From an uncultured Candidatus Saccharimonadales bacterium (GTDB lineage Bacteria; Patescibacteriota; Saccharimonadia; UBA4664), in NCBI GenBank assembly GCA_964467655.1, contig CAYXSN010000007.1, forward strand, positions 682 to 64,681: a stretch of DNA of 64,000 bases, in the 5' to 3' direction. Positions 26,568 to 56,696 of this stretch are shown here, in pieces. Position 1 is the stretch's first letter. Each line of letters opens with the position of its first letter. Below the pieces are notes generated by a model, which was not told the DNA's origin, searched no databases, and saw nothing but the letters and a program-made list of their open reading frames with translations. The position numbers and the translations under genes are program-made.

Positions 26568-26643
26568 CCGGCGAGATAGCTCAGTTGGTAGAGCAGTGGC
26601 CTGAAGAGCCTCGTGTCCTCGGTTCGAGTCCGAGTCTCGCCAC
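26568..26643 (+). tRNA. tRNA-Phe (anticodon GAA)
   Basis: cloverleaf folded by hand: acceptor GGCGAGA/TCTCGCC, D-arm GCTC-AGTTGGTA-GAGC, anticodon loop CTGAAGA, T-arm CTCGG-TTCGAGT-CCGAG, encoded CCA. Confidence 0.85.
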
Positions 26644-26644
26644 C

Positions 26645-26722
26645 ATGCGGGTGTAGCTCAGTTGTTAGAGCGCTTCCTTGCCAAGGAAGAGGCCCAGGGT
26701 TAGAGTCCCTGTACCCGCACCA
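26645..26722 (+). tRNA. tRNA-Gly (anticodon GCC)
   Basis: acceptor GCGGGTG/TACCCGC, anticodon stem CTTCC/GGAAG with loop TTGCCAA, T-arm CAGGG-TTAGAGT-CCCTG, encoded CCA; 1 nt after tRNA-Phe. Confidence 0.85.
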
Positions 26723-28421
26723 TAAAGGATACATCAGGATTTGGTGTATCTTTTTTGATTTTAAAGAGCTCGTTTATACCTGTTAAGTCCCATACATTTG
26801 TGCCAGAATCGCTGGTTACAGAAGCCAATTCTGCATAGGTTGGAGTTTCGTTAAAAATGACGCTGAAAAAGTCGGCTTTTTTGAGCGGATCAGTCTGTTG
26901 GAGCAGCAAATAATCCATGTGTTGGAGAAAATATTTGGCGTACTGCAAAACGACGTCAAAATTGACCGGTTGCTCTTTCTGTTTTTGCTCCTTTTCTTCA
27001 TTCAGCTTGTTGATTTCTTGTTCGACTTGCATAAGCTCGTCCTCCATGAATTTAATGGCTGTAGGACTGCTCAGAAGCTTGATTTTATCGACTGTGGCAA
27101 ACGCCTGAGCTTGCAGCTCGCCAATGCGCTTGTCGATTAGAGCTTCGTCCTGGCCGAATTCTTCGCGGCGCTGCTGCCAGACCGTCTCTAGCGCCGCCAT
27201 GAGCGTGTCGATGTACTCCTGGGTGAAGGTTATTTTGCGCACGAACGCCTCTACCGTGGCCTCTAGCTTCTCTTTAGGCACGCGGAAATGATGCCCACGC
27301 TTGTTGCAGTGATAGCCTGGGTAGTACTTGTAGCGACCCTTGGCGGCACTGCCAAAGAACGGCCGCCTGCACTCGGAGCAGGTCACAACCTTTCGGTATG
27401 GGTACTCGGCATTGTGTATGCCTTTTCTGAGCTGGTGATCGGGCACCTGCTGCTTGCTGATAGATACGACCCCGTTTTGCATGCTCAAAATTAGCTTGCC
27501 ACGGTTGGCCTTATTGAACGTCTCAAAATCTATCAAGCCGTCAAAGCGGGCTTTCACTGGTTGGTCTTCCGTCCACTTCTCGCGGATGACTCCGGCGTAA
27601 ATCGGGTTCGCAATATAGAGCCAGAAGCGCTTGAGCGTCAGCTTATGGCCGCCGGAGCGCCCTGTGATTTGGGTCTTGTCAGTTTTGGCCCGCCGGTTTT
27701 GATAGCGCGAAGCATAGCCGAGGTTGTTGATCTCCTCGACGATCTTTGTGTCGCTCAAATGGCCCTGGCATCGCAGCTCAAACATCTTCCTGATAAATGG
27801 CGCTTCTTTCTCATTTGGTACCAGGATATAGCGCTTACCATTGCCAGTCTCTACTCGCTGGCTCGTAAGGCCATAGGGAGCTGAGCGCATCCAATAGCCC
27901 ATGCGCGTATAGCGAACCTGCGCACCGATCATACGACTTAAAATATCGCGCACTTCGTCCTTGGCACGTTCTGCTTCCAGCAATTCAGTTTTGCGGGAAG
28001 GGGAGTACTCGCTCCAGCGGTACTTTAGGCCCAGGTGTTCAAGCGTGTTCACCTTCACATTGCTAATAACACCGTAAACGTCTTCAAGTGCTACGCCGTG
28101 CGGCTCAAGTTGGCTTTTCAGCAAGTCATAGGCTGTCGAGCCTGCCCGAGTAAAGCGGTCAATTGACTTCACGATTACGACATCAATCTTGTTCTTCGGG
28201 TCTATGGCGTAATTCACCACGTCCTGCATCGGCTGGTACGACTCCTTTGATGCCGATTCCAGGTAAGTCAAAATTTTGATGATCTTGATATTGCGGCTGG
28301 GCGCGTAGCGCTGGCCCTGCTCAATTTGTGCTTCTGGCGAGTCGCCATCTATGCCCTGACCGATAGTTGAAACGCGAACGGCTAGCAGGCCGTTACGCGG
28401 ACGCTGGTAACTGGGATTCAC
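26700..28421 (-). CDS. Large serine recombinase (resolvase/invertase catalytic domain plus recombinase and zinc-ribbon domains); integrase candidate
   Basis: N-terminal LLAVRVSTIGQ (catalytic Ser); C-terminal CSECRRP...HCNKRGHH zinc ribbon and coiled coil; GTG at 28421 behind GGAGG preferred over TTG 28433; 3' end overlaps tRNA-Gly 3' end by 23 nt on opposite strand. Confidence 0.75.
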   Translation of the reverse strand: MNPSYQRPRNGLLAVRVSTIGQGIDGDSPEAQIEQGQRYAPSRNIKIIKILTYLESASKESYQPMQDVVNYAIDPKNKIDVVIVKSIDRFTRAGSTAYDLLKSQLEPHGVALEDVYGVISNVKVNTLEHLGLKYRWSEYSPSRKTELLEAERAKDEVRDILSRMIGAQVRYTRMGYWMRSAPYGLTSQRVETGNGKRYILVPNEKEAPFIRKMFELRCQGHLSDTKIVEEINNLGYASRYQNRRAKTDKTQITGRSGGHKLTLKRFWLYIANPIYAGVIREKWTEDQPVKARFDGLIDFETFNKANRGKLILSMQNGVVSISKQQVPDHQLRKGIHNAEYPYRKVVTCSECRRPFFGSAAKGRYKYYPGYHCNKRGHHFRVPKEKLEATVEAFVRKITFTQEYIDTLMAALETVWQQRREEFGQDEALIDKRIGELQAQAFATVDKIKLLSSPTAIKFMEDELMQVEQEINKLNEEKEQKQKEQPVNFDVVLQYAKYFLQHMDYLLLQQTDPLKKADFFSVIFNETPTYAELASVTSDSGTNVWDLTGINELFKIKKDTPNPDVSFMVRVQGL

Positions 28422-28679
28422 GCCCACCTCCAATCTGCCGCAAGAGTTTTTGTCCGTTTGTCTGATCCTCGACGATACGGTCGATAATCAGATTTGCGAT
28501 CACAAAGACCCTCTCCTCGGTCGGCATCGTGCAGTACACGGGCACTTCACCTGTATTTTTGTTTTTAGAACCTTTGAGTCTCCCCATTACGTTTGCCCTC
28601 GTTTAGCTTGGATTTTCGCCAAAGCAAAATAAGCTTCGGCTCACAAATGGCGAAACGTTAACAATCGACTAAGCTATGA

Positions 28680-28904
28680 CTAATCTTCGGATTTGGCAGG
28701 CTGCGCGCCGGTTTTCTTGCGGGTTGAAAGCTCACCGTCAACGAGCTTCTTTAACTCGTCGTCGCCACCTTCTTTGGCGATAGCCTGCAATACAAACTCG
28801 GTCAGCGTCTGTCCGCGGCCGTAGGCAACAGCTTTTGCTCTGTTGAGAATCGCTGCACTTGCCGCTACCTGGAATCGAACTCGTGATTCTGACATATACC
28901 TCAT
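28680..28904 (-). CDS. Ribbon-helix-helix (CopG/Arc/MetJ-like) DNA-binding protein
   Basis: 74 aa; beta-strand RVRFQV followed by two helices; acidic/basic tail. Confidence 0.4.
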   Translation of the reverse strand: MRYMSESRVRFQVAASAAILNRAKAVAYGRGQTLTEFVLQAIAKEGGDDELKKLVDGELSTRKKTGAQPAKSED

Positions 28905-28950
28905 TGTACTACAAGTAGCACATGTCCGTATCCTCCATTAGGAGGAGCAG

Positions 28951-29286
28951 TTAATACACCACCCCTCCTTGACCGAAGGCTGCCAGCTCAGATACAGGCG
29001 TTGGCCGGAAGAATATATCCCGCTCAATCGAGATTCCTGCCGGATATTGCACCTTACTCAATTCCGATAGGGAGAAGTACCCGAACTCAGCCTCGTGGCC
29101 GCTCACCAACCCCCAGCACGTATCCTTGCCGTCAAACTCGATTGCGTACCATGTCCAGTTTGACCACGGGTGAAAGAACTTGGCGATAGCGATTTTATCC
29201 TCTGTCGGTACGTCTTCCGTTGCATAGAGCTTTGGCAGCTTTTGTGCTAATGTTTTAGTTAGTAGCTTCATGGATTTACCCTCCAA
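28951..29286 (-). CDS. DUF2958-family protein (conjugative-element associated)
   Basis: MKLLTKTLAQKLPKLY...FFHPWSNWTWYAIEFDG...LVSGHEAEFGYFSLSEL...ISIERDIFFRP matches remembered DUF2958 consensus. Confidence 0.6.
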   Translation of the reverse strand: MEGKSMKLLTKTLAQKLPKLYATEDVPTEDKIAIAKFFHPWSNWTWYAIEFDGKDTCWGLVSGHEAEFGYFSLSELSKVQYPAGISIERDIFFRPTPVSELAAFGQGGVVY

Positions 29287-29503: not shown

Positions 29504-30274
29504 ATGGTGACAGTAAAGACAGAACCGAAATATAGGCGGCCATTAAATACAGAGCAGGTACAAATACTAGAACTGCTGTATAAGTTTCGGTTTGCGACAA
29601 TGGCAGTTGTTAAGGATTATTTTGTTGAAACTAATCCTGGCATGAATGTTTTTAGAAGGTTGGAGACGTTAGCGGACCAGGGCTTTATAGCTAAGCGCTA
29701 CTTTGACAACTACAGATTGCTGCATAAGCCGGTCGTGTACTATTTACTACCAGCCGGAGCGCGCAAGCTGAAAGAGTATCGAGACGAGGACGACACTGAC
29801 GAGATCAATATCAAGGGCATTTATCGTGATGGCGATGTCAGTGAGCAATTCGTCATGCATAGTGTGGCGGCCTTGAATCTTTACAATCGCCTCGTAGCTG
29901 AGTATGGAGATGACTTAGACTTCTTCTCTAAGGCCGATCAGGCCAGCTTTGATAACTTTCCGAAGCCCCTTCCAGATGCCTACTTAACGCTACAGGCGGA
30001 CGGCGGCGCGCAGCACTACTTTGTAGAGATATTAGATGATGACGCTCACTTGCTCGTGGATGTCTCGAAAAAGATTAAGCGTTTCATTGACTACAAAAAG
30101 AGCGGCAGTTGGGCATTGGTGGCAAGAGCACCATTTCCAAAGATTATCTTTGTTTGTGCGTCAGAAACGTTCTGTAAACGTGCACAAAAACGCTGCGAGG
30201 CCGCCCTGGATAAGGCTTGGGTTATGGACATAACGGTCGAGGCTGTAACAAGCGACCATATTACGCTGAGCTAA
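29504..30274 (+). CDS. Replication-relaxation (Replic_Relax) family protein
   Basis: N-terminal wHTH LNTEQVQILELLYKFRFATMAVVKDYF...VFRRLETLADQGFIAKRY...KPVVYYLLPAGARKL typical of the family; ATG 29504 preferred over upstream ATG 29417, which lies in the AT-rich repeat. Confidence 0.6.
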   Translation: MVTVKTEPKYRRPLNTEQVQILELLYKFRFATMAVVKDYFVETNPGMNVFRRLETLADQGFIAKRYFDNYRLLHKPVVYYLLPAGARKLKEYRDEDDTDEINIKGIYRDGDVSEQFVMHSVAALNLYNRLVAEYGDDLDFFSKADQASFDNFPKPLPDAYLTLQADGGAQHYFVEILDDDAHLLVDVSKKIKRFIDYKKSGSWALVARAPFPKIIFVCASETFCKRAQKRCEAALDKAWVMDITVEAVTSDHITLS

Positions 30275-30369: not shown

Positions 30370-31032
30370 ATGAATATACAAGCATCGCAAAGCGAAGACA
30401 ACGGCATAGCTCTCTTGACTGACAATGACCTTGAAATTTACAGTGTAGGCATATCAACCGGCGGAGTAGCCGAAATTCGGATGGCCGAGGCGAGCCCCTC
30501 GCGGCACATTGTGGCGACAACTGTTGACGAAGAAGGTGTTGCTTTCGCCCAGAAGTTCATAACCGAGAAACACCTAGAGCAACAGATCGAAGCCAAGATT
30601 GAGGACGTAGCTCAGCCGCTGCCGTATGAAGATGATCACTTTGACTATGTATACGCTCGCCTGGTGCTACATTATTTACCAAAAGCTGCACTCGATCAGG
30701 CGCTAGCCGAATTGCACCGCGTACTCAAGCCAGGCGGTAAGCTGTTTGTAGTAGTACGCTCGGTGAATTGCCCGGATGCCAAAGACCCCAGCGCTACCTA
30801 TGATCCAGAAACAGGCCTCACGACTTGCGTGCACACCGATCAGCAAACTGGCAAGACGCACAACTCCGTCCGCTACTTTCACTCAGAAGAGTCTATCAGG
30901 GAGCATGTTACAAAGGCTGGCTTTACCGTTCAGTACACAAAATCATACGATGAGCGGCTATTTACTGATTTCATGCGTACCAAGCTCGCTCCACATGACG
31001 ATAACGTCGTAGAACTGCTGGCTACCAAATGA
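30370..31032 (+). CDS. Class I SAM-dependent methyltransferase (Methyltransf_11-like)
   Basis: GGTATAATC 7 nt upstream of ATG; YVYARLVLHYLP...LKPGGKLFVVV. Confidence 0.55.
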   Translation: MNIQASQSEDNGIALLTDNDLEIYSVGISTGGVAEIRMAEASPSRHIVATTVDEEGVAFAQKFITEKHLEQQIEAKIEDVAQPLPYEDDHFDYVYARLVLHYLPKAALDQALAELHRVLKPGGKLFVVVRSVNCPDAKDPSATYDPETGLTTCVHTDQQTGKTHNSVRYFHSEESIREHVTKAGFTVQYTKSYDERLFTDFMRTKLAPHDDNVVELLATK

Positions 31033-31472
31033 GCAGCGAAGACGTATTCCACCTCGGCATAAAAGCACTCATTCGCAATCAACAAGGTAAAGTGCTGCTG
31101 ATGCAGGTCAACCCAGCTAAGCTGCATGGTGAGCGTCGGGAATATTGGGATTTACCGGGTGGTCGTATCCAAAAAGGCGATTCCGTTGAAGATACGCTCA
31201 GGCGTGAAGTGGTGGAAGAAACAGGGCTAGCAGAAATCGCCAACATTCAACCCGTGAGCATGGTATTGTCCAATATCCGTATCCCAATGGGCAACAACGA
31301 GTCGGTGGGGCTTATTCTGAGTGTGTACGCCTGTACCATACCGGATGATGCGACAATAACGCTCTCCGATGAGCATATTGCCTATGACTGGTTTACGCCA
31401 GATAAAGCTGCTGAGTTGCTGCGGGTGAAGTACCCGGATGGATTTTGTAACGCTATCGGAGAACTAGCATGA
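31029..31472 (+). CDS. NUDIX hydrolase
   Basis: Nudix box LPGGRIQKGDSVEDTLRREVVEETGL. Confidence 0.75.
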   Translation: MSSEDVFHLGIKALIRNQQGKVLLMQVNPAKLHGERREYWDLPGGRIQKGDSVEDTLRREVVEETGLAEIANIQPVSMVLSNIRIPMGNNESVGLILSVYACTIPDDATITLSDEHIAYDWFTPDKAAELLRVKYPDGFCNAIGELA

Positions 31473-32065
31473 TCAAATACGTCCTACAATCCGGTGGCAT
31501 CCGCAACCAGCCAACCCTAAAAAAGCAGTTTCACCAAGAGCTAGTGAAGGGCCTGGGCAACAACCCTAAATTCCTACTGTGCAACTTTGCCCAAGGTCGC
31601 GAATACTGGGAGGTAAAGTTTTCTGGTTATTCAAATGCCATAGCCGAAGATATGTCAGAAGGTGTCACGCCTACCTTTGAATTGGCAATGCCTGACACAT
31701 TCGTTGAGCAGTGCAAAGCAGCAGACGTTATTTACTGTCACGGCGGCGATAACGACCTCGTGCAGTATTGGATGCGCAAGTTTGACGTTCCAGTCATATT
31801 TGATGGTAAAGTGCTGGCCACAAACTCAGCCAGTTCCATGATGCTCGCCAGCAGCTACTGGACATGTGACTGGCGGGCTTGCCGTGACGGTTTTGGCATC
31901 CTGCCCATAAAGTTTATCGCCCACTACCAGTCAGCCTATAGCGCCGATGATCCGCGCGGCCCGATTGACTGGCAAAAAGCGTACGACGAGCTGGCGGCAT
32001 ACGGCGATACCAGCCTGTCAATCCATGCGCTCAAAGAGGGCGAGTATATTGTCTTCGAGAAATAG
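31469..32065 (+). CDS. Hypothetical protein, possibly peptidase S51 (dipeptidase E)-like
   Basis: DVIYCHGGDNDLVQYW...GKVLATNSASSMM loosely resembles S51 GGNTF...G(T/S)SAG pattern. Confidence 0.3.
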   Translation: MIKYVLQSGGIRNQPTLKKQFHQELVKGLGNNPKFLLCNFAQGREYWEVKFSGYSNAIAEDMSEGVTPTFELAMPDTFVEQCKAADVIYCHGGDNDLVQYWMRKFDVPVIFDGKVLATNSASSMMLASSYWTCDWRACRDGFGILPIKFIAHYQSAYSADDPRGPIDWQKAYDELAAYGDTSLSIHALKEGEYIVFEK

Positions 32066-32075
32066 AGGAGCCCAT

Positions 32076-32690: not shown

Positions 32691-32696
32691 ATCAGC

Positions 32697-34642: not shown

Positions 34643-34651
34643 ATTTGAAGA

Positions 34652-46744: not shown

Positions 46745-46747
46745 GGA

Positions 46748-49077: not shown

Positions 49078-49079
49078 CC

Positions 49080-49927: not shown

Positions 49928-49936
49928 GACCTCTCC

Positions 49937-50422: not shown

Positions 50423-50555
50423 CGCTCGCCTCCATGTCATTCAAATAAACAACTTCACCATTGATGAAAGCCAGCCCGAACCGTTCAAGTTTTGAGTGTA
50501 TCAACCGTAACTCAGCCTCAAAGTGGTTCCACCTACAATCCATTAGGCGCACCAT
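50415..50555 (-). CDS. 46-aa small protein, family member 1 (MVRLMDCRWNHFEAELRLIHSKLERFGLAFINGEVVYLNDMEASDA)
   Basis: four intact paralogs of identical 46-aa length in window; translationally coupled to PLD nuclease gene. Confidence 0.5.
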   Translation of the reverse strand: MVRLMDCRWNHFEAELRLIHSKLERFGLAFINGEVVYLNDMEASDA

Positions 50556-50642
50556 TTTAGAGTTACAGATAGAAAAGCGTTCCAGATCGGGCGCTTTTTT
50601 ATATTGAGACCGCATCGTAATCTGTTGCATTGGTTAGAGTCC
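50525..50642. repeat. Composite repeat unit U1: box1 (GGTTCCACCTAcAATCCAtTaGgCGCACCAT = start of small ORF, antisense) + terminator hairpin AAAAGCGTTCCAGATCGGGCGCTTTTTT (50573-50600) + box3 ATATTGAGACCGCATCGTAATCTGTTGCATTGGTTAGAGTCC
   Basis: near-identical to U2 (51482-51600) over ~75 bp; partial copies at 52415, 53476, 54355, 55367, 55539. Confidence 0.8.
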
Positions 50643-50682
50643 TTTATGGCTGAAAATCTCACTGGTTGATATACTTGTATTC

Positions 50683-51375
50683 ATGTTTAGATCTGTCGCC
50701 TTTTTTGATATCGACAACACCATGTATGACGGGTTTTCTTACTTTGCACTTTTAGAAAGGCAGGTTAGTGAGGGCCTAATAAAGCAGGAGACACTTACCG
50801 CTGCACTGGCGAGTATGCAAAAATATAAGGCCAAGACCCAGGATTATGAAACGACAATCGTTGAGATGCTCGATATTTATGCCGCAGGCTTAAAAGGCGC
50901 CGAACATACTACTGTCCTCGAATCAACGAGGCAGTTTTACGAAAAATCGGACAAATTCTTCGCCTATGTTAGCCCAACCATTAAAGAGCTAAAAGGCTCA
51001 CATGATATCGCCCTCGTGACTGGCGAACCCCAGTTTGTCGCCGAGGCGGTGAAGGATCTCTTCGGTGCGAACTCGTATCATTCTACTGAATATGAGGTTA
51101 TTGACGGGGTATTCACGGGCCGTATTAAGTCCTACCTTGCCTCGCGTCACGAAAAGCACGATGCCATCAAGCATCTCATGCAAGGTCATAGCGTCAAAAA
51201 TTCTTTTGCGTTTGGAGATTCTGAGGGAGATATAGAAATGCTGCGAGCAGTGGAATATCCTATATGTCTCAATGCCACTGACGGCTTACGTGCAATTGCC
51301 ACCGAGCAGGGCTGGAATATGCCCGACATTGACGCGGTGACCAAACTTGTCGCAAGTCTTACTAAGGCGGCCTAA
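50683..51375 (+). CDS. HAD-superfamily hydrolase (HAD-IB/SerB-like phosphatase)
   Basis: motif I FFDIDNT; motif IV FGDSEGDIEML. Confidence 0.7.
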   Translation: MFRSVAFFDIDNTMYDGFSYFALLERQVSEGLIKQETLTAALASMQKYKAKTQDYETTIVEMLDIYAAGLKGAEHTTVLESTRQFYEKSDKFFAYVSPTIKELKGSHDIALVTGEPQFVAEAVKDLFGANSYHSTEYEVIDGVFTGRIKSYLASRHEKHDAIKHLMQGHSVKNSFAFGDSEGDIEMLRAVEYPICLNATDGLRAIATEQGWNMPDIDAVTKLVASLTKAA

Positions 51376-51512
51376 AACTCATTGTCGTACTCTTGACCTG
51401 AGTCGAGTACAATCCGACCGCCGATATTTATTAAGCCAAATAGGACCAATTTTTCATACATCAGGATGCTTATCTCGATGTGGTTCCACCTATAATCCAG
51501 TTGCCGCACCAT
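51372..51512 (-). CDS. 46-aa small protein, family member 2 (MVRQLDYRWNHIEISILMYEKLVLFGLINIGGRIVLDSGQEYDNEF)
   Basis: hand translation; below ORF-track length cutoff; shares N-terminal MVRxxDxRWNH with paralogs. Confidence 0.45.
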   Translation of the reverse strand: MVRQLDYRWNHIEISILMYEKLVLFGLINIGGRIVLDSGQEYDNEF

Positions 51513-51600
51513 TTTCAGAATTACAGATAGGAAGGCGTTCCAGGTCGGGCGCTTTTTTATATTGAGACCGCATCGTAATCTGTTGCATCGGTTAGAGTCC
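51482..51600. repeat. Composite repeat unit U2 (box1 + terminator hairpin 51532-51557 + box3)
   Basis: see U1. Confidence 0.8.
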
Positions 51601-51652
51601 TTTCTGTTTGATGGCCAAGCTCGTTGTGTAACTCTTATGATAAAATGTCAGT

Positions 51653-52300
51653 ATGCAGCTCGCGCGACGCTTTAGAAATTTGAGTAATCGCTATCCATTC
51701 GCTGGGCCACTTATGTGGCTGCTGACGTTTCAGTTCTTCATTGCGGAGATTGTGACTGCGAACAGTTGGGCCAAGTTGCCCTACAGTTATCGATTGAACG
51801 CCATTAGCGATCTGGGCGCAGTTGGATGCGGTCTATTCGATGACGACCGTTTCGTGTGCTCGCCACTTCATGGAATTATGAATGGCTCGTTGATCCTACT
51901 GGGCATCACGATGGCCGTAGGATCGGTGCTCCTGTACACACGCTTACAAAAGAGTAAGGTTGGGTTTAGCCTGATGACATTAGCAGGCATTGGCGCATTC
52001 TTGGTTGGAATATTCCCCGAGGACACGGTCTTTTGGGTGCACATCGTAGGTCAAGACCTGGCGTTCGTATTCGGGAACGTTGCTTTGATAGTTTTTGGTT
52101 TTACACTGCCGGCACCGCGCGTATTTCGTTGGTATAGCATTACATCGGGAACAGTAGCACTCGTAGCACTCGTATTATTTTTATCGCATCATCGCCTCTT
52201 CTTGGAACTTGGCGGTATGGAGCGAACCGTAGCCTATCCGCTCCTCCTTTGGCTGATAGTAGCGGGTGGATATTTTGCAACAAGACGAGTTCGTAACTGA
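51653..52300 (+). CDS. Polytopic membrane protein, DUF998-like
   Basis: 215 aa, ~6 TM; N-terminal ...LNAISDLGAV motif. Confidence 0.4.
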   Translation: MQLARRFRNLSNRYPFAGPLMWLLTFQFFIAEIVTANSWAKLPYSYRLNAISDLGAVGCGLFDDDRFVCSPLHGIMNGSLILLGITMAVGSVLLYTRLQKSKVGFSLMTLAGIGAFLVGIFPEDTVFWVHIVGQDLAFVFGNVALIVFGFTLPAPRVFRWYSITSGTVALVALVLFLSHHRLFLELGGMERTVAYPLLLWLIVAGGYFATRRVRN

Positions 52301-52304
52301 ATAC

Positions 52305-52445
52305 CTAAGCATCGCCTTCCTCAACTTCGCAAAGATAAACGACCTCTCCACTCATGAAAACTAGCCCTAATTGTTCAAGCTTTGACTGTATCAACCGCAG
52401 GCCAGACTCTAGGTGGTTCCACCTATAATCCACTTGCTGCACCAT
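52305..52445 (-). CDS. 46-aa small protein, family member 3 (MVQQVDYRWNHLESGLRLIQSKLEQLGLVFMSGEVVYLCEVEEGDA); ORF track extends it to 52487 with an alternative start
   Basis: paralog; same length and same terminal GATGCTTAG as member 1. Confidence 0.5.
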   Translation of the reverse strand: MVQQVDYRWNHLESGLRLIQSKLEQLGLVFMSGEVVYLCEVEEGDA

Positions 52446-52500
52446 AAACGAAATCACCGTTTTTAATGAACCCGTTATAGGGTTCATTTAGTTTATAAGA
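52415..52500. repeat. Partial repeat unit U3: box1 (52415-52445) followed by two hairpins (AAACG-n7-CGTTTTT; AATGAACCC-gttata-GGGTTCATT) instead of box3
   Basis: seen directly. Confidence 0.6.
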
Positions 52501-52579
52501 CACTTTTGAAACAGGTTTCTTCTACTCTCAGCAAGACGGTAGTTACCTGTATAATGAGGGTAACCTATGGGGTACCTTC

Positions 52580-53317
52580 TTGAAAAACAATAGCTACTAC
52601 AAAGTCACGCAACTTGACACCGATTTGTGGGCTTTTGAAGATGTAAAAAGTAGCGAGGACTCAATAAGCTATCTTTTGTGTGGCAAAAACAAAGCATTAG
52701 TGTTTGATACGGGGCTTGGCTTAAGCCCCGTATTGCCGCTAATTAAAGAAATAACTGAATTACCGCTCATAGCTTGTCTGTCACACTGGCACTTTGACCA
52801 TTCAGGAGGGGCACATGAGTTTGATGAGGTGATTGGCTGGCATTCACAACAGATGAAAAATACTAGTGAGAACGGCGTTAGCTTAGATGTCATTAAAGCT
52901 AACGTTAGCACTACCTTTTGGAAAAGTATTGGAAGAGGTAATTATCAAACAAAAGGTTTCCCACTTCAGATGATTAGCCAGGAACAAACACTAGACTTAG
53001 GAGGTTTTGAACTTAAAGTTTTACATACGCCTGGCCATACTTCTGACTCTATTTGTCTATATGAAGGACAGAAGAAGTGGTTATTCGCAGGTGATAGCGC
53101 ATACCCTGGTCCAATATATTTGCATTTTGCTGATTCTGATACTAATACGTACCAGGATTCTTTAACAAAGCTTGCGAAGCTTGATGTCGAAAGTATTTTC
53201 CCAGGCCATAACTCTCTGAAAACATCAAAAGACTTGCTGGTTGAGTTAGATAAAATGCTAACTAACCCCTCCTACAAGTCACAACTTTTCCCTGAACTGA
53301 GTATTCGAAAGTCTTAG
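52580..53317 (+). CDS. MBL-fold metallo-hydrolase
   Basis: HWHFDHSGG (HxHxDH), downstream H and D ligands. Confidence 0.7.
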   Translation: MKNNSYYKVTQLDTDLWAFEDVKSSEDSISYLLCGKNKALVFDTGLGLSPVLPLIKEITELPLIACLSHWHFDHSGGAHEFDEVIGWHSQQMKNTSENGVSLDVIKANVSTTFWKSIGRGNYQTKGFPLQMISQEQTLDLGGFELKVLHTPGHTSDSICLYEGQKKWLFAGDSAYPGPIYLHFADSDTNTYQDSLTKLAKLDVESIFPGHNSLKTSKDLLVELDKMLTNPSYKSQLFPELSIRKS

Positions 53318-53475
53318 ATCACCTGGATGGGGCTTTATTTTTGATCTAGTGTGAGTCCCGTCCCTTACCTACTAAGTAAATAATTCCGATAAGGGACTTT
53401 CAGTATTTTCCTCCAACGGGCTATTTCATCCCTGATGGGGTGTAAACTTTTTTGGAGCTGCTGTACCAGTTTAGT

Positions 53476-53556
53476 TTTACAGATAAGTGGATGTTCCAGA
53501 TGAGGCGTCTATTCACGTTGAGCTCGACATATAATCTGCTACCTTGGTTAGGCCCT
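53476..53556. repeat. Partial diverged repeat unit U3b (hairpin region + box3-like ...ATAATCTGCTACCTTGGTTAGGCCC) lacking box1
   Basis: alignable to U1 50563-50645 at ~65% identity. Confidence 0.5.
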
Positions 53557-53619
53557 TTCTGTGCGCCGAGCTGCGATTTTAGCTTGACATAGTAAGTACA
53601 CGTAAGTACAATTAAAGTT

Positions 53620-53871
53620 ATGGTACGAGCAATAGTCACGAAATCAGGGAATTCATATGCGCTTCGAGTGCCGAAGCGATATATTGACGACAATAAACTA
53701 CGGCTAGGCGATGTGGTAACTCTTGAGGAGCCACTTACGCTGCAGAGGAATGCTCTGGAAGCGCTCGTGAGGCAGGGGAAAACACACGGAGCGATTAGCG
53801 GAATTGCTGACCCGGTGAAATGGCAACGCCAGCAGCGGCAATCAAGCGACCCCTGGGAAGAACTAAAGTGA
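53620..53871 (+). CDS. AbrB/MazE/SpoVT-fold antitoxin
   Basis: MVRAIVTKSGNSYALRVPKRYIDDNKLRLGDVV swapped-hairpin pattern. Confidence 0.6.
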   Translation: MVRAIVTKSGNSYALRVPKRYIDDNKLRLGDVVTLEEPLTLQRNALEALVRQGKTHGAISGIADPVKWQRQQRQSSDPWEELK

Positions 53872-54239
53872 TTTTGCTAGATAGCAATATAGTAATCTAT
53901 CTCCGTGACCCGCAATGGGGGGAGAAGATTTTCAATCAAATTGATGGAGAAAGACTAGCAACCTGTAACGTAATAATTTCAGAAGTCCTGGGCTTTAAGG
54001 GGCTACCAAAAGCTGACGCTGATCATTTCGAGCGCTTTTTTGTAACCATGAAAAACTTTCAGTTTGATGAGGCGGTTACAAAGATGGTGATAGAGCTTAG
54101 GAGAAGGTATGTAATCCAATTGCCCGATGCAATTATTGCAGCTTCAGCTCTAGTAAACGATCTCACACTTTATACTCATAATGCAGAAGATTTCGAAAAG
54201 ATTTCAGATCTGCTACTCTTTGATCCGCTTGCACCATAG
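53868..54239 (+). CDS. vapC: PIN-domain toxin (VapC-like)
   Basis: GTG start overlapping antitoxin stop (GTGA); VILLDSNIVIYL (first acidic residue), further conserved D/E positions. Confidence 0.6.
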   Translation: MILLDSNIVIYLRDPQWGEKIFNQIDGERLATCNVIISEVLGFKGLPKADADHFERFFVTMKNFQFDEAVTKMVIELRRRYVIQLPDAIIAASALVNDLTLYTHNAEDFEKISDLLLFDPLAP

Positions 54240-54244
54240 AGACT

Positions 54245-54385
54245 CTACTTGAGGCAGCCGAACGGGTACTCGACATACACGTGACTACCATTTATACAGG
54301 CGATCCCGAATCGCTCAAGCTTAGAGTGTACTAGCCGTAATCCAACCTCAAGGAGGTTCCACCTATAATCCACTTGCTGCACCAT
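54245..54385 (-). CDS. 46-aa small protein, family member 4 (MVQQVDYRWNLLEVGLRLVHSKLERFGIACINGSHVYVEYPFGCLK)
   Basis: hand translation; below ORF-track cutoff. Confidence 0.45.
   Translation of the reverse strand: MVQQVDYRWNLLEVGLRLVHSKLERFGIACINGSHVYVEYPFGCLK
54355..54385. repeat. Repeat box1 copy U4 (GGTTCCACCTATAATCCACTTGCTGCACCAT)
   Basis: identical to U3 box1 over 31 nt. Confidence 0.7.
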
Positions 54386-54402
54386 TCTGAAATAACAGGT
54401 AT

Positions 54403-54430
54403 GACACATCGAATAATGTGTCTTTTGTTT
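54403..54430 (+). terminator. Intrinsic terminator (GACACAT-cgaata-ATGTGTC followed by TTTTGTTT)
   Basis: seen directly. Confidence 0.55.
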
Positions 54431-54538
54431 CTCGAGACTACTACATCTACCTCTGTACCGCTGAGTGTAAGTCTCATTTGCTTAAAATGCTCTGCGTACG
54501 CTACGATTAAGTTGAATTATTCATAATCGCGCGCGGGG

Positions 54539-55249
54539 ATGCCTATGAGAAAGACCGATCAGGCAGGCTTCAGCATCATTGAAGCATTACTTATCTTAGT
54601 GGTTGTTGGCATCTTAGGTTTCACAGGTTGGTCTGTATACCATTCTCGAACGGTTACTAACAAAGATTACAGTTCATCAGCTTATACGCAGACCACGTCG
54701 CCTGATCTATATAAGGGTTGGAAATCCGCTAGCCTTAAGTATGAAAAAATGAGTTTTAAATACCCAAACACATGGCAAATCAGCGACACCTCTCAAGATG
54801 AGGTAGGGACGGGCGGTACTGCAACGCCAGGCGCTGATGACGTTACGCTGACAAGCCCTACTGGTCTTTACGTGAGCATTATGTCGGGCCAGGCAGGCGT
54901 TGACACCAACGGCTCGCTGATAGGCTTATCAACCTCGCGACCCATCAACACGCTTGGTGGTAGTTATTTCCTCGTTTATTACACACATAAGGCTCAGAGT
55001 ACTACCGAAGCACGGGGGGCTTGCATTAATAAGACTGCAAGCTCTACGGGTGGCCCGTCGATAGCCAGTAAAAATATCCAACTGGCAGGCATAGCAAGCG
55101 GTGCTGCTATATCTGCAGCTAATCTAATTTGTATTGGCTACCCAGCGCCAAACAGCACATCCCCCGTGCCAGTGAAGCCTGTGTCGGCGTTTGAGCAGGA
55201 CGCGTCATACAACGACGCCAAACTCATTCTTGAGTCACTTACGTATTAG
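54539..55249 (+). CDS. Type IV pilin-like protein (prepilin-type N-terminal cleavage/methylation signal)
   Basis: MPMRKTDQAG/FSIIEALLILVVVGILGF: Gly-Phe cleavage site, Glu+5, hydrophobic helix; Thr/Ser-rich globular part. Confidence 0.55.
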   Translation: MPMRKTDQAGFSIIEALLILVVVGILGFTGWSVYHSRTVTNKDYSSSAYTQTTSPDLYKGWKSASLKYEKMSFKYPNTWQISDTSQDEVGTGGTATPGADDVTLTSPTGLYVSIMSGQAGVDTNGSLIGLSTSRPINTLGGSYFLVYYTHKAQSTTEARGACINKTASSTGGPSIASKNIQLAGIASGAAISAANLICIGYPAPNSTSPVPVKPVSAFEQDASYNDAKLILESLTY

Positions 55250-55290
55250 TTTAGATAGTATAAATGTAACTCCCTACACTTACTTAGAAG

Positions 55291-55571
55291 CTAAATGCTC
55301 TCGATAGGGCTCATCCAATATTTCTCTCCATCGAGCCAGTTCAACAGTAATAGAATGTAAACATTTTCCCACTTGCAGCACCAGGAATAATCTACAGATA
55401 AGAAAGCGCACCAGAACGGGCGCTTTTTGGTTCTGTACTGTAATCTGTTGCAGTGGTTAGGGTGCTTACCGGATCTTAAATCGTAAGTAAAGCCTAGTTT
55501 GTCGAGTTTTGCGTACATACGCATCAGACTTGCCACAAACTGATTCCACCTAAGATCCACCTCGCGCACCA
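55291..55571 (-). CDS. Small-protein family member 5, extended (MVREVDLRWNQFVASLMRMYAKLDKLGF...) reading through repeat U5; ORF track opens it at 55707
   Basis: N-terminus matches family; lacks the usual stop after ~46 codons, so possibly a degenerate copy. Confidence 0.3.
55367..55464. repeat. Repeat unit U5 (truncated box1 CCCACTTGCAGCACCA + hairpin 55401-55427 + box3-like GTAATCTGTTGCAGTGGTTAGGGTGC)
   Basis: seen directly. Confidence 0.6.
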
Positions 55572-55614
55572 TTATATTGTTCGTAACCTTCAACCGGTTG
55601 CATTGGTCAGCGCC
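55539..55614. repeat. Repeat unit U6 (box1-like GATTCCACCTAAGATCCACCTCGCGCACCAT + box3-like GGTTGCATTGGTCAGCGCC, no hairpin)
   Basis: seen directly. Confidence 0.5.
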
Positions 55615-55672
55615 CCTTGCGCGCGCAAAACTCACCACACAGAAAGCCAAAGTATCTTGGTAAACTAGTTGT

Positions 55673-56446
55673 ATGAGACAAAACGATAGCAAGCAGCGGG
55701 GCGCCATAACGAGTGTGCTCTACTATTTCTGCACATTACTTGTCATAATGATCCCGTTTTGGGTATTGGGATCAGTTACACGTATTCACGGCCTGCCATT
55801 CAACATGCAATTGAATGTGTTGTTGGTACTCGTTATGCCGGTAGTTGCGCTCTACTTTATTGCCCGTACGTATGGTACATCGTCACTCAGACGGGTTGCC
55901 ATCGATTGTCTGCCGGGCCATCGCGCCAGTAATCTTGCGCTAGCGATTGCGTTTCTGACGGTGCCAGCTGTGGCAATGCTTGTGTTCTCTGCGGCTCATT
56001 TCTTTGTGGCGTTTGACGGCTGGCCGGTCGCATTCGTACTGGTACCGGCATATTTCATCGTTTACTACTTTGCTGCAGCGTTCGAAGAGATAGGTTGGAC
56101 TTGGTACGCTACGCCGATCTTGGGCAGGAAAATGAGCGTTGTTGGTACGGGCGTCACCGTCGGTGTAGTCTGGGCTGCTCTGCATACATTGCCATGGTAT
56201 CAGCAGAACGGCTGGTGGTTTATGACTGGGATGATCATCTTTTCCGTACTAAGCCGCATTATCATGACCTGGGTATATCTGTGTAACGGCAGACTGCTTT
56301 GGTTAAGCATCGCTTATCACGCTATGATCAATACGACATTCACACTGTTTCACCCAGGTAGCCCGTATGCTAATCCGTTCTTGTATGCAATAGCTCTTAC
56401 GCCATTGGTAATTTGGATCTTGTATCGTGCTAATTCCCATGATTAA
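55673..56446 (+). CDS. CPBP-family (CAAX protease/Abi) intramembrane metalloprotease
   Basis: multi-TM; motif 1 AAFEEIGW; motif 2 AALHT; motif 3 AYHAMIN. Confidence 0.6.
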   Translation: MRQNDSKQRGAITSVLYYFCTLLVIMIPFWVLGSVTRIHGLPFNMQLNVLLVLVMPVVALYFIARTYGTSSLRRVAIDCLPGHRASNLALAIAFLTVPAVAMLVFSAAHFFVAFDGWPVAFVLVPAYFIVYYFAAAFEEIGWTWYATPILGRKMSVVGTGVTVGVVWAALHTLPWYQQNGWWFMTGMIIFSVLSRIIMTWVYLCNGRLLWLSIAYHAMINTTFTLFHPGSPYANPFLYAIALTPLVIWILYRANSHD

Positions 56447-56696
56447 GATGGAAAATCTCCACGTTACGAATACCAGCCCAAGCAGATTGCCTCATATGGT
56501 GTCGGTCCGAACTGACGGCACGATCATTACGCTACCAAGTAACAGGATGCAATCACGAATCGATTGAGCTGCACCAAAAGTCCCACCCAGATATCCTGGG
56601 TGGGGCAGTTCATTGGGCGCCACCTCAGGCAAGGATCGGGGTGGCGCAGCTTGAGATCGCGCTTGTGCTTATATAGTCTAGCGCTACAATAACAGT

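What the first reader, a model, noticed from the sequence alone, without database searches (positions are those of the whole stretch)
26568..56500. ICE-like island at tRNA-Phe/tRNA-Gly with serine recombinase and a minimal monoderm T4SS
A large serine recombinase lies directly next to a tRNA-Gly, with its 3' end overlapping the tRNA 3' end by 23 nt. The adjacent region carries:
- RHH and DUF2958 proteins;
- a Replic_Relax protein;
- a tightly overlapped operon of VirB2-pilin, VirB6, VirB3-like, VirB4, CHAP hydrolase and VirD4;
- RadC and a PLD nuclease;
- an XRE regulator and toxin-antitoxin;
- methyltransferases.
The region is visibly AT-richer than the first 26 kb. There is no VirB7/9/10, so this is a Gram-positive/monoderm-type T4SS. 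No canonical MOB relaxase is recognisable; Replic_Relax may substitute. Large serine recombinases rarely target tRNA genes, so the placement is notable.
Basis: partly seen in the sequence, partly recalled or inferred. Interest (0 to 1): 0.6.

Follow-up and report, generated by a model that had tools for sequence, protein, structure and literature searches.

The report
Saccharibacterial conjugative island at tRNA-Gly
An approximately 29-kb island in a Saccharibacteria (CPR) genome carries an integrase, relaxase, coupling protein and type IV secretion genes, and it matters because that secretion system was thought to have lost its DNA-transfer parts.

Summary
tRNA-Phe and tRNA-Gly(GCC) are followed by a convergent large serine recombinase (LSR) whose last 23 nt overlap the tRNA. 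Downstream lie DUF2958, Replic_Relax, cargo genes, and an operon of VirD4, CHAP, VirB4, TrsD, PrgI, pilin-VirB6 and pilin. RadC, XRE and PLD follow. GC is 0.49, against 0.54-0.56 in the flanks.

The host is a Saccharimonadales bacterium. The T4SS is the lineage-wide Patescibacterial MPF_FATA-like system. Here it sits inside a full ICE gene set.

- **Relaxase:** Replic_Relax is the MOBC relaxase class, so a canonical MOB is present.
- **Integrase targets:** All seven LSR genes of this family examined at DNA level end antisense inside a tRNA 3' end, at six tRNA species. At least 99 of 120 homologues carry such tails. The reading frame relative to CCA is the same in nearly all.
- **att sites:** attL is CGCACCAT at 26716-26723. 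Five direct copies at 50.5-55.6 kb each precede a roughly 45-aa "tail" ORF. This ORF is homologous to the C-terminal extension some LSR homologues carry instead of the tRNA tail.
- **Structure:** An ICE proper of 26.72-50.56 kb, followed by four decayed single-gene cassettes.

No excised circle or empty site was found, so current mobility is inferred, not shown.

The parts
26570..26645 (+). tRNA-Phe(GAA), host
   Evidence: ARAGORN; Rfam
26647..26722 (+). tRNA-Gly(GCC), host gene and integration target (B arm)
   Evidence: The T-stem differs from that of L023 although the 60 nt after CCA are identical, so the tRNA is host DNA.
26716..26723 (+). attL core / direct repeat CGCACCAT (last 7 nt of the tRNA plus 1)
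   Evidence: The same 7-10 nt recur at the five tail units. The junction is in phase with the (M/L)V codons of nearly all LSR homologues.
26724..26757 (+). P' arm with hairpin and T-run (terminator for the tRNA operon), inside the LSR tail-coding linker
   Evidence: Sequence; 100% identical in window and L023
26700..28433 (-). Large serine recombinase (573-577 aa). The last 7 codons (MVRVQGL) are antisense tRNA-Gly.
   Evidence: Pfam. Catalytic Ser22 and Arg20 are invariant. dN/dS 0.04.
28393..28587 (-). 64-aa ORF overlapping the LSR start (candidate RDF or regulator; inferred)
   Evidence: Conserved next to the LSR in L023, L025 and L027; shorter small ORFs (58-60 aa, homology not tested) occupy the same position in L029 and L030. 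No family hit.
28680..28904 (-).
28951..29271 (-). DUF2958 protein
   Evidence: Pfam 55 bits; 93% identical in L023
29272..29506 (.). Candidate oriT plus divergent promoters. Hairpin 1 centred on 29327-29351; hairpin 2 at 29400-29425.
   Evidence: 82% mean column identity among window, L023 and L027, although the flanking proteins are 44-69% identical. ssDNA fold z = -6.5. 5 of 10 pairs in hairpin 2 covary.
29507..30274 (+). Replic_Relax = MOBC-class relaxase (255 aa)
   Evidence: PF13814 36.1 bits against a cut-off of 25.3. MOBC equivalence from PMC5357655. Alignment.
30370..35643 (+). Cargo block 1: methyltransferase, NUDIX, two unknowns, Ser_hydrolase, amine oxidase, DUF952, methyltransferase
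   Evidence: Pfam. Replaced by different genes in L023/L028 and L027.
35640..38552 (-). VirD4-like T4CP (970 aa): one N-terminal TM segment, Walker A GGTGAGKT at residue 465, C-terminal DUF6953
   Evidence: Pfam TraG-D_C and T4SS-DNA_transf above cut-off. NCBIfam TraD and CD1115, weak..
38552..39097 (-). CHAP peptidoglycan hydrolase (VirB1 analogue)
   Evidence: Pfam; NCBIfam
39094..40830 (-). VirB4 ATPase, CD1110 (CTn2-type, MPF_FATA) family
   Evidence: NCBIfam 362.8 bits against a cut-off of 325; Pfam
40827..41447 (-). TrsD-like protein (VirB4 N-terminal homologue)
   Evidence: Pfam TraC_F_IV. NCBIfam CD1110 N-terminal part and TrsD, weak.
41395..41931 (-). PrgI/VirB3-like membrane protein (weak)
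   Evidence: Pfam PrgI 21.8 bits, below the cut-off of 27
41928..43430 (-). T4SS_pilin-VirB6/TrbL fusion
   Evidence: Pfam; TrbL_3 precomputed
43434..43775 (-). VirB2-type pilin (T4SS_pilin/TrbC; Mbov_0395 family)
   Evidence: Pfam. NCBIfam 41.3 bits against a cut-off of 40.
43894..46142 (+). Three unknown genes (143, 281 and 323 aa), divergent from the T4SS operon
   Evidence: No family hits. The 143-aa gene is conserved in L028.
46196..47464 (-). Ham1 NTP pyrophosphatase and a 238-aa unknown
   Evidence: Pfam
47600..48479 (-). 144-aa unknown plus RadC (JAB) operon
   Evidence: Pfam. Also linked to the LSR-MOBC module in T4SS-less L030.
48620..48731 (-). LOOT RNA (RF03000), leader upstream of the 144aa-RadC operon
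   Evidence: Rfam 76.6 bits. Conserved in L028.
48820..50440 (.). XRE regulator (+), GDSL hydrolase (+), 66-aa ORF (-), PLD-like nuclease (-)
   Evidence: Pfam. XRE is 94% identical in L028.
50415..50555 (-). P arm 1 ('tail' ORF MVRLMDCRWNHFEAEL...) with core CGCACCAT at 50548-50555: proposed attR of the ICE proper
   Evidence: The tail HMM hits LSR homologue P0091 at residues 562-596, E = 2.5e-10. P0324 carries an LSR C-terminus plus tail.
50556..55572 (.). Four decayed tandem cassettes. Cargo: HAD; DUF998; MBL plus MazE-like/PIN; 236-aa protein. Each ends in a tail unit with a core at 51504-51512, 52439-52448, 54379-54385 and 55565-55572. A D2 hairpin module follows the cores of units 1 and 2; D2-like fragments occur at unit 4 (53469-53567) and around unit 6.
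   Evidence: the repeat finder. Six-frame tail HMM, E from 1e-16 to 1e-25. Lowest GC (0.459) and lowest tetranucleotide correlation.
55673..58988 (+). CAAX protease (host or last cassette; unresolved) and a HisKA_7TM histidine kinase (host flank)
   Evidence: Pfam. In L031 the kinase homologue directly follows the homologue of the left-flank response regulator.

Best explanation
The region from 26.72 to about 55.6 kb is a composite integrated element of a Saccharimonadales (Saccharibacteria/CPR) bacterium.

**ICE proper.** It runs from about 26,723 to 50,555 (23.8 kb). It was inserted by its own large serine recombinase at the extreme 3' end of tRNA-Gly(GCC), by crossover within GCACCAT (discriminator, CCA and one further base).
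- The tRNA stays intact.
- The element supplies a new terminator hairpin.
- The recombinase ORF, which spans the attachment site, now ends in seven codons of antisense tRNA.

**Transfer genes present.** MOBC-class relaxase (Replic_Relax) next to a conserved double-hairpin candidate oriT. VirD4-type coupling protein. Patescibacterial MPF_FATA-like channel: VirB4, TrsD, PrgI, pilin-VirB6, VirB2 pilin and CHAP hydrolase. An XRE / LOOT-RNA / 144aa-RadC module. Exchangeable metabolic cargo.

**Proposed life cycle (inferred).**
1. The LSR excises the element between attL and the P-arm copy at 50.55 kb. This restores a full-length LSR carrying a roughly 45-aa C-terminal 'tail'.
2. The relaxase nicks oriT.
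3. VirD4 delivers the DNA to the channel.
4. The LSR integrates the element at a tRNA 3' end in the recipient.

**Cassettes.** The 5 kb beyond the first P arm holds four single-gene cassettes, each bounded by P-core-P'-like junctions. They are remnants of, or non-autonomous riders on, earlier insertions at the same tRNA.

**Shown:** gene content, junction structure, family-wide tRNA targeting, both junction states for near-identical LSRs, and purifying selection. **Inferred:** present-day excision and conjugative transfer.
For: **Gene set**
-. VirB4 belongs to the CD1110/CTn2 family, above the curated cut-off.
- PF13814 corresponds to MOBC.

**Integrase and tRNA**
- All 7 LSR genes examined at DNA level overlap a convergent tRNA 3' end. 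The tRNAs are Gly (twice), Leu-GAG, Phe, Glu, Leu-CAG and Arg.
- At least 99 of 120 homologues carry antisense-tRNA tails of the form (M/L)V...G(L/F/I/V)EP...SIQLSYG, in one fixed frame.
- Window and L023 tRNA-Gly differ in both T-stem strands, yet the 60 nt after CCA are identical. The crossover therefore lies at the tRNA end.

**attR / P arm**
- Five direct 7-10-nt repeats of the attL core each head a tail ORF.
- A profile built from the tails hits LSR homologue P0091 exactly after its S-L-V junction, E = 2.5e-10.
- P0324 is 96% identical over 103 aa to the C-terminus of the LSR (P0001) that sits at tRNA-Gly in GCA_035278105.1, and 85% identical to the window's. It continues into a tail instead of the tRNA.
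- The tail family has 216 representatives. What precedes the (M/L)V junction varies, as expected of a recombination joint.

**Tandem insertion documented**
- L042 reads tRNA-Arg | LSR_B ... tail | LSR_A, with a GTACCA repeat.

**Unit behaviour**
- The same LSR-MOBC ... VirD4-T4SS backbone occurs at tRNA-Gly (window, GCA_035278105.1) and at tRNA-Glu (L027), each with different cargo.
- T4SS-less versions (LSR + MOBC, with or without XRE/RadC) occur at tRNA-Leu and tRNA-Arg.
- L025 carries two modules in one genome.

**Composition**
- The element side is about 5 GC points below the host flank in the window, L023, L027 and L030.

**Flank synteny**
- In L031 the homologues of the left-flank RR (72%) and the right-flank HK (46%) are adjacent.

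**Function retained**
- dN/dS is 0.01-0.13 for the LSR, DUF2958, VirB4, TrsD and CHAP.

**Candidate oriT**
- Conserved and structured.

**Precedent**
- Streptococcal ICEs with a single serine integrase have one repeat inside the integrase gene and swap C-termini on integration (PMC4701971).
Against: - No empty attB of this species and no attP circle junction was found. Ten contigs from about ten samples are all in the integrated form and 100% identical.
- The one apparent empty site (L010) is best explained as an interspecies chimera.
- The T4SS is the lineage-wide system. VirB4 is 82-95% identical across the top 120 hits. The homologous system is essential for epibiotic growth in Southlakia, where no coupling protein or relaxase was recognised (PMC10633639). 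A host function could therefore by itself explain conservation of the channel genes.
- Backbone genes diverge by 47-95% between the window and its nearest relative, which looks like vertical descent rather than recent transfer.
- Canonical LSRs recombine only attP x attB, so the origin of the tandem array is not explained.
- MOBC catalytic residues could not be verified. The PD..E motif is not invariant in the 7-sequence alignment.
- That the T4SS lies inside attL-attR rests on one genome (this window).
Confidence: 0.7

Rival explanations
1. Domesticated chromosomal locus. The T4SS region is core Saccharibacterial genome, inherited vertically and used for host interaction. The LSR, MOBC and VirD4 are relics of an ancient ICE that no longer excises or transfers. 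The att-like repeats are fossils.
For: - VirB4 is ubiquitous and highly conserved.
- The T4SS is essential in Southlakia and described as chromosomal (PMC10633639, PMC12102498).
- Synteny is conserved in three genomes.
- Only integrated, identical copies were seen in about ten samples.
- Divergence between relatives looks orthologous.
Against: - The LSR, DUF2958, VirD4 and MOBC are intact. Where it could be measured, purifying selection is strong: LSR dN/dS is 0.04.
- The backbone sits at different tRNAs (Gly against Glu), and small LSR-MOBC elements sit at Leu, Arg and Phe.
- Near-identical LSRs occur in both junction states (P0001 against P0324).
- Tandem insertion is seen in L042.
- The element is consistently AT-richer than the host flank.
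- Cargo turns over between genomes with 95%-identical VirB4.
Confidence: 0.2
2. Two separate things lying side by side. A small LSR-MOBC integrative mobilizable element (like L029 or L030) happens to sit next to an immobile chromosomal T4SS cluster. The T4SS is not part of the mobile unit.
For: - LSR-MOBC modules exist without a T4SS.
- dS of the LSR and DUF2958 (0.8-1.1) is lower than that of the T4SS genes (at least 2, or saturated). This suggests the two modules have different histories.
Against: - The LSR-MOBC ... VirD4-T4SS linkage recurs at two different tRNAs.
- The first P-arm/att copy lies beyond the T4SS, RadC and XRE, at 50.55 kb. No tail unit was found between the LSR and the T4SS.
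- RadC and XRE, which lie on the far side of the T4SS here, are part of the T4SS-less element in L030.
Confidence: 0.07
3. Prophage or phage-derived island that uses a serine integrase.
For: Serine integrases and RadC are common in phages. RadC hits a PHROG family.
Against: - No capsid, terminase, portal or tail families were hit in any ORF.
- There are no relatives in IMG/VR, by either protein or DNA pattern.
- A full conjugation gene set is present.
Confidence: 0.01

Closest known systems
Patescibacterial / Saccharibacterial T4SS (Southlakia epibionticum SEML1_0006-0019; Quinonero-Coronel et al. 2025, PMC12102498; Wang et al. 2023, PMC10633639)
   Same: Same component set and order: VirB2-type pilin(s), VirB6, PrgI/VirB3, TrsD, VirB4 and a peptidoglycan hydrolase after virB4. 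Monoderm MPF_FATA ancestry. No VirB7, VirB9 or VirB10.
   Different: - Here a VirD4-like T4CP immediately follows the hydrolase, whereas the paper found only 148 of 5,713 T4CPs near virB4.
- A MOBC relaxase lies 5 kb away, whereas only 15 relaxases were found near virB4.
- The whole cluster lies between an LSR/tRNA junction and an att copy.
- Only one free pilin plus one pilin-VirB6 fusion, not a six-gene pilin array.
- Not next to dnaA within the window.
Streptococcal ICEs and IMEs with a single serine integrase (rumA-targeting ICEs, Ambroset 2016 PMC4701971; IME class 8, Coluzzi 2017 PMC5357655)
   Same: - Serine integrase placed at the element's end.
- The attachment site lies inside the integrase gene's 3' end.
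- Short direct repeats (2-21 bp).
- Integration exchanges the integrase's C-terminal coding end with target DNA.
- The triad of serine integrase, MOBC (PF13814) relaxase and VirD4 is exactly that of IME class 8.
   Different: - The target is the 3' CCA end of tRNA genes (at least six species), not rumA or other protein genes.
- The reading frame across the junction is fixed family-wide.
- The exchanged C-terminus is a conserved roughly 45-aa module.
- The host phylum is different.
CTn2-type (CD1110) MPF_FATA conjugative transposons of Clostridioides, and Mycoplasma ICEs
   Same: VirB4 scores above the NCBIfam CD1110 equivalog cut-off. The pilin scores above the Mbov_0395 (Mycoplasma ICE pilin-like) cut-off.
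   Different: VirB4 is split into a TrsD-like protein and an ATPase. The relaxase and integrase types differ from the Mycoplasma ICE, which uses a DDE transposase (from my own knowledge; not tested here).
Tandem accretion / CIMEs at ICESt1-ICESt3-type att sites, and integron cassette arrays
   Same: An array of single-gene units in one orientation, each bounded by the same recombination-site module, lying next to an integrase-bearing element.
   Different: The recombinase here is a large serine recombinase. The comparison with tyrosine recombinases in those systems is from my own knowledge. The mechanism of array growth is unknown. The junction module also codes for a peptide that can be fused to the LSR.

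Membership tests
Integrative and conjugative element (ICE) | Site-specific integrase at one end | tested here: met
   LSR with Resolvase, Recombinase and Zn-ribbon domains. Catalytic Ser22 is invariant.
Integrative and conjugative element (ICE) | Relaxase | tested here: met
   PF13814 36.1 bits against a gathering score of 25.3. PF13814 corresponds to CONJscan MOBC (PMC5357655). Active-site residues were not verifiable.
Integrative and conjugative element (ICE) | Type IV coupling protein | tested here: met
   TraG-D_C 25.2 bits (cut-off 22) and T4SS-DNA_transf 22.6 bits (cut-off 20.1). Walker A motif and N-terminal TM segment. Weak NCBIfam TraD and CD1115 hits.
Integrative and conjugative element (ICE) | VirB4 plus mating-channel genes | tested here: met
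   CD1110 family 362.8 bits against a cut-off of 325. TrsD, PrgI (weak), VirB6, pilin and CHAP are also present.
Integrative and conjugative element (ICE) | Defined attL and attR with direct repeats bracketing all of the above | tested here: met
   CGCACCAT at 26716-26723 and 50548-50555, plus four further copies. P-arm homology to LSR C-terminal extensions, E = 2.5e-10.
Integrative and conjugative element (ICE) | Excision to a circle, or an empty site in conspecifics | tested here: not met
   - All 10 contigs carrying DUF2958 are in the integrated form.
- L010 is probably chimeric.
- Raw reads could not be searched.
- Indirect support only: P0324, a 96%-identical LSR C-terminus joined to a tail.
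Integrative and conjugative element (ICE) | Conjugative transfer | not testable with these tools
   Needs mating experiments.
MPF_FATA-class / Patescibacterial T4SS | VirB4 in the FATA/Patescibacteria clade, TrsD or PrgI present, no outer-membrane core (VirB7/9/10) | tested here: met
   NCBIfam CD1110 equivalog (CTn2 is a FATA prototype according to PMC12102498). TrsD and PrgI hits. No VirB7, VirB9 or VirB10 family hit among all ORFs scanned. A formal CONJscan run and phylogeny were not available.
Large serine recombinase (serine integrase) | N-terminal resolvase catalytic domain with Ser, recombinase domain, zinc ribbon and coiled coil; 2-bp crossover with short repeats | tested here: met
   Domains and the invariant R20/S22 are present. 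Repeats are 7-10 nt. The exact crossover dinucleotide is not determinable.
MOBC relaxases (PD-(D/E)XK-like, TraX/MobC type) | PF13814 / CONJscan MOBC profile match; nuclease-fold catalytic residues; adjacent oriT | tested here: inconclusive
   - The profile match is met.
- P155 is invariant, but the D and E positions vary in 2 of 7 relatives.
- No solved homologue was found.
- The candidate oriT is conserved and structured.
LOOT RNA (RF03000) | Score above the Rfam gathering threshold across the full model | tested here: met
   76.6 bits against 46.4, model positions 1-121. 82.6 bits in L028.
Prophage | Virion structural and packaging genes | tested here: not met
   No such Pfam or PHROG hits. 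No IMG/VR relatives.

The most novel reading that the evidence does not exclude
Three linked readings remain open.
1. The Saccharibacterial T4SS, published as lacking coupling protein and relaxase and as essential for epibiotic life, is in environmental Saccharimonadales still the conjugation machine of a resident ICE, and it moves DNA.
2. The ICE's large serine recombinase belongs to a family of more than 1,600 members specialised on the CCA end of tRNA genes. The gene is split by its own attachment site. A conserved roughly 45-aa C-terminal domain is joined to the enzyme only in the excised (or tandem) configuration and is replaced by antisense-tRNA codons on integration. This would act as a built-in switch of directionality.
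3. The same sites bound single-gene cassettes that pile up next to the tRNA, giving a serine-recombinase analogue of an integron or CIME array.
Probability: 0.3. Interest if true: 0.85.

Novelty: new variant of a known kind. Interest (0 to 1): 0.68.

Why it matters
- **Function of the CPR T4SS.** Two recent papers concluded that this T4SS has been repurposed away from conjugation because coupling proteins and relaxases are missing. Here, and in at least two related genomes, the same T4SS is flanked by a divergent VirD4, a MOBC relaxase with a conserved hairpin-rich candidate oriT, and an integrase with identifiable att junctions. Whether the system still transfers DNA, and how these tiny genomes exchange genes, becomes testable with specific junction sequences.
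- **Integrase biology.** A large family of serine integrases aimed at tRNA 3' ends, with a C-terminus that depends on integration state, is of interest for integrase mechanism. It may also be useful for tool development, for example integration into conserved tRNA sites in organisms that are hard to manipulate.
- **Annotation practice.** HMM-based MOB and T4CP typing probably under-calls these divergent proteins in Patescibacteria.

Tried and rejected
1. **Empty site via L010.** This contig is identical to the window up to tRNA-Gly position 48, then shows a different T-arm and a tRNA-Val. Rejected for two reasons. Its tail is identical to another species (L022). The 41-nt shared tRNA segment exceeds the assumed assembler k-mer, so it is a chimera or a graph artefact.
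2. **Crossover inside the T-arm, with an element-borne tRNA 3' half.** Rejected. Window and L023 differ on both T-stem strands but are identical after CCA. L018 has the same tRNA without an LSR.
3. **Contig ends at 54356 as an island boundary.** Rejected. They are explained by a 31-mer shared between repeat copies.
4. **The 50-56 kb repeats as degenerate tRNA-Gly 3' copies.** Rejected. Local alignment is no better than background.
5. **Terminal inverted repeats in L029 and L030 to find the far ends.** Nothing convincing.
6. **Right-flank kinase orthologue in the 813-kb relative.** None exists; the best homologue anywhere is 46% identical.
7. **Structure prediction of MOBC with an alignment.** The PDB sequence search was empty.
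8. **IMG/VR scans for the oriT motif and for the LSR.** Empty.
9. **attP junctions among contigs carrying DUF2958.** Only the integrated form was found.
10. **'RHH' annotation for the small ORFs.** No support.

Full report
**1. Observation**

ARAGORN and Rfam place tRNA-Phe at 26570-26645 and tRNA-Gly(GCC) at 26647-26722. A 577-aa ORF on the minus strand (26700-28433) has Resolvase, Recombinase and Zn_ribbon_recom domains. Its stop codon lies 23 nt inside the tRNA-Gly 3' end.

Pfam, NCBIfam and the genes called on identical contigs confirm the listed genes:
- DUF2958 and Replic_Relax.
- A tightly overlapped minus-strand operon at 35640-43775: VirD4-like T4CP, CHAP hydrolase, VirB4, a separate TrsD-like VirB4 N-terminal protein, PrgI (weak), a pilin-VirB6 fusion and a VirB2-type pilin.
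- RadC, XRE, a PLD nuclease, a MazE-like/PIN pair and two class-I methyltransferases.

The 'RHH' call has no support. GC is 0.557 on the left, 0.493 for 26723-56500 and 0.543 on the right. Tetranucleotide correlation with the flanks collapses between about 25 and 57 kb.

**2. Host organism and what is already known**

The 48-nt 5' part of the tRNA-Gly occurs exactly in four GTDB MAGs. All four are Candidatus Saccharimonadia/Saccharibacteria.

The published picture comes from PMC12102498 and PMC10633639:
- Patescibacteria carry a chromosomal MPF_FATA-like T4SS with VirB2 pilins, VirB6, PrgI, TrsD and VirB4.
- It is essential in Southlakia.
- Coupling proteins are rarely nearby and relaxases are almost absent, so a non-conjugative role was proposed.

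The window's VirB4 belongs to this system. It has more than 6,000 homologues, and the top 120 are 82-95% identical. It scores above the NCBIfam CD1110 (CTn2) cut-off. The T4SS itself is therefore not new.

**3. The relaxase**

PF13814 (Replic_Relax) is the family that CONJscan calls MOBC. In streptococcal IMEs it occurs together with VirD4 and a serine integrase (PMC5357655).

The MOBC-DUF2958 intergenic region (29272-29506) has 82% mean column identity among the window, L023 and L027. The flanking proteins are only 44-69% identical between the window and L027.
- As ssDNA it folds into two hairpins, z = -6.5.
- The second hairpin keeps pairing through five double substitutions.
- I take this region as candidate oriT plus promoters. 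This is inferred.

**4. Comparative context**

Exact-protein look-ups of LSR and VirB4 homologues gave these results.
- **GCA_035278105.1** (813-kb contig; LSR 92%, VirB4 95% identical) has the same layout as the window. In order: GDSL, 146aa-RadC, a different defence cargo, the T4SS, VirD4, about 14 kb of different cargo, MOBC, DUF2958, two small ORFs, LSR and tRNA-Gly.
- **L027** (LSR 55% identical) has VirB4, CHAP, VirD4, other cargo, MOBC, DUF2958 and LSR, but at tRNA-Glu.
- **L029 and L030** carry LSR + MOBC, with XRE/RadC in L030, and no T4SS. They sit at tRNA-Leu(CAG) and tRNA-Arg(CCG).
- **L025** has two modules, at tRNA-Leu(GAG) and tRNA-Phe.
- In L023, L027 and L030 the element side is about 5 GC points below the host flank.
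- The LSR, DUF2958, VirB4, TrsD and CHAP have dN/dS of 0.01-0.13.

**5. The recombinase-tRNA junction is a family property**

Alignment of 13 homologues, and inspection of 120, gave three results.
- After the conserved ...NELFKxK plus linker, almost all end in (M/L)V followed by peptides such as G(L/F/I/V)EP and SIQLSYG.
- These peptides are antisense translations of the acceptor, T-arm and D-loop of a tRNA.
- The frame relative to CCA is always the same. At least 99 of 120 match a crude motif.

The window's tail is only MVRVQGL. The reason is that the Saccharibacterial tRNA-Gly T-loop TTAGAGT reads TAA in antisense.

The tRNA is host DNA and the crossover lies in its last nucleotides. Two observations support this.
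- Window and L023 tRNA-Gly differ on both T-stem strands and at position 66, yet the 60 nt after CCA are identical.
- L018 has the same tRNA without an LSR, and its homology to the window ends 3 nt past CCA.

Streptococcal ICEs that target rumA give the precedent. One repeat lies in the target and the other inside the serine-integrase gene, and the C-terminal ends are exchanged (PMC4701971).

**6. The other end**

The repeat finder showed a five-copy unit between 50.4 and 55.6 kb. Each copy begins, on the minus strand, with ATGGTGC. This is the reverse complement of GCACCAT, the attL core. Each copy encodes about 45 aa with the pattern MV(R/Q)xxDxRWNxxxxxL..KL...G.

Four lines of evidence tie these units to the LSR.
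- A profile of the five units hits LSR homologue P0091 at residues 562-596, immediately after its S-L-V junction, with E = 2.5e-10.
- A search of 1.84 billion cluster representatives found 216 members. What precedes the (M/L)V junction varies among them: nothing, a conserved 25-aa 'D2' segment, other sequences, or an LSR C-terminus.
- P0324 is 96% identical over 103 aa to the C-terminus of the LSR (P0001) that sits at tRNA-Gly in GCA_035278105.1, and 85% identical to the window's. It continues into such a tail. The same LSR lineage therefore exists in both junction states.
- L042 shows how tails come to follow LSRs in chromosomes. It reads tRNA-Arg | LSR_B - DUF5681 - MATCAP - tail | LSR_A, with a GTACCA repeat at both joints. 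A newer element has been inserted between the tRNA and an older one.

**7. Model for the window**

- attL is CGCACCAT at 26716-26723.
- The P arm / attR of the ICE proper is at 50415-50555, with its core at 50548-50555.
- Four further units have cores at 51504-51512, 52439-52448, 54379-54385 and 55565-55572.
- These delimit single-cargo cassettes: HAD; DUF998; MBL plus MazE/PIN; and a 236-aa protein.
- The cassettes are the most compositionally deviant part of the window.

Independent support for the outer limits comes from L031. There, the homologue of the left-flank response regulator (72% identical) is directly followed by the homologue of the right-flank kinase (46% identical).

**8. What is not shown**

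- No empty site and no circular junction were found. L010 is a probable chimera.
- All contigs carrying DUF2958 are in the integrated form and identical.
- How a serine integrase builds tandem arrays is unexplained.
- It is also unknown whether the tail is a functional domain or only the footprint of the P arm.
- Whether the T4SS here transfers DNA, serves host interaction, or does both cannot be decided by sequence alone.

**9. Verdict**

The finding is real, and the 'ICE-like' reading is largely right. It is best described as the Saccharibacterial T4SS in its complete ICE form. The element is integrated by a tRNA-CCA-targeting serine recombinase and is followed by cassette remnants. It is a new variant of a known kind.

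Two aspects were, as far as my literature searches show, not described before: the family-wide LSR/tRNA junction with C-terminal swapping, and the att-bounded cassette array.

Noticed in passing
window 48620-48731 (-); L028 822-936: LOOT RNA (Rfam RF03000; 76.6 and 82.6 bits) lies between the XRE gene and the 144aa-RadC operon in both genomes. This gives the orphan motif a host lineage (Saccharimonadales) and a fixed genetic context inside a conjugative element.
   Followed up: partly
window 26697-26703; L018-L023 tRNA-Gly genes: Every Saccharibacterial tRNA-Gly(GCC) seen has the T-loop TTAGAGT, with A where the near-universal C56 would be. Its antisense supplies the TAA that stops the recombinase ORF.
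   Followed up: partly
L019 167-420: tRNA-Gly is followed by an inverted copy of its T-arm and a second direct copy of its last 23 nt about 130 nt downstream. CsoR, DUF305 and Cu-ATPase genes follow. It looks like the scar or att pair of a different element at the same tRNA.
   Followed up: no
L020 1764-3324; L021 1353-1486: An unrelated large serine recombinase (24% identity to the window's) also converges on tRNA-Gly(GCC) and overlaps it by 12 nt. A second LSR lineage therefore uses the same site.
   Followed up: partly
L010 (SRR30654322_582109) 1137-1251: This contig switches from the window's sequence to another species' tRNA-Gly T-arm plus tRNA-Val inside a 41-nt stretch shared between species. 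It is a probable assembly chimera that mimics an empty site.
   Followed up: yes
window 21151-26521 and 56697-58988: HisKA_7TM histidine kinases and response regulators flank the island on both sides. The right-hand kinase has only five homologues of at least 41% identity in 5.8 billion proteins. More distant hits include Chloroflexi- and Gammaproteobacteria-labelled MAGs. The flanks may themselves be accessory DNA.
   Followed up: partly
window 35640-35910 (VirD4 residues 897-967): The coupling protein carries a C-terminal DUF6953 domain (72.5 bits). The domain is missing from the 897-aa orthologue in the closest relative.
   Followed up: no
window 46748-47464 vs L023 2028-2741: A 238-aa unknown gene is 86% identical between the two genomes but sits in different modules: next to RadC in the window, and between VirD4 and MOBC in L023. 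This indicates shuffling within the element.
   Followed up: no
L030 4551-4643 and 9774-9821: The same TTACnnnnnGTAA palindromes occur in both divergent promoter regions (XRE|159aa-RadC and MOBC|small ORF-LSR). This suggests one repressor controls both modules.
   Followed up: no
window vs L023/L028: Synonymous divergence of the LSR (1.1) and DUF2958 (0.8) is much lower than that of VirB4 (3.1) and the other T4SS genes (saturated). The integrase module may have been exchanged more recently than the T4SS module.
   Followed up: no
P0086 (candidate division TM7 genomosp. GTL1): This LSR homologue is annotated as a 791-aa protein fused to a NUDIX domain. NUDIX genes also recur as cargo in the window, L023 and L028.
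   Followed up: no
window 50556-50660, 51513-51620: The 'D2' module after the att core holds a + strand hairpin terminator with G-U pairs. On the minus strand it also encodes a 25-aa prefix of the form MQQIxxxxQNKKAPxxERFxICNxx. This prefix is conserved in at least 20 unrelated database ORFs, so it is a widespread partner of the tail unit.
   Followed up: partly
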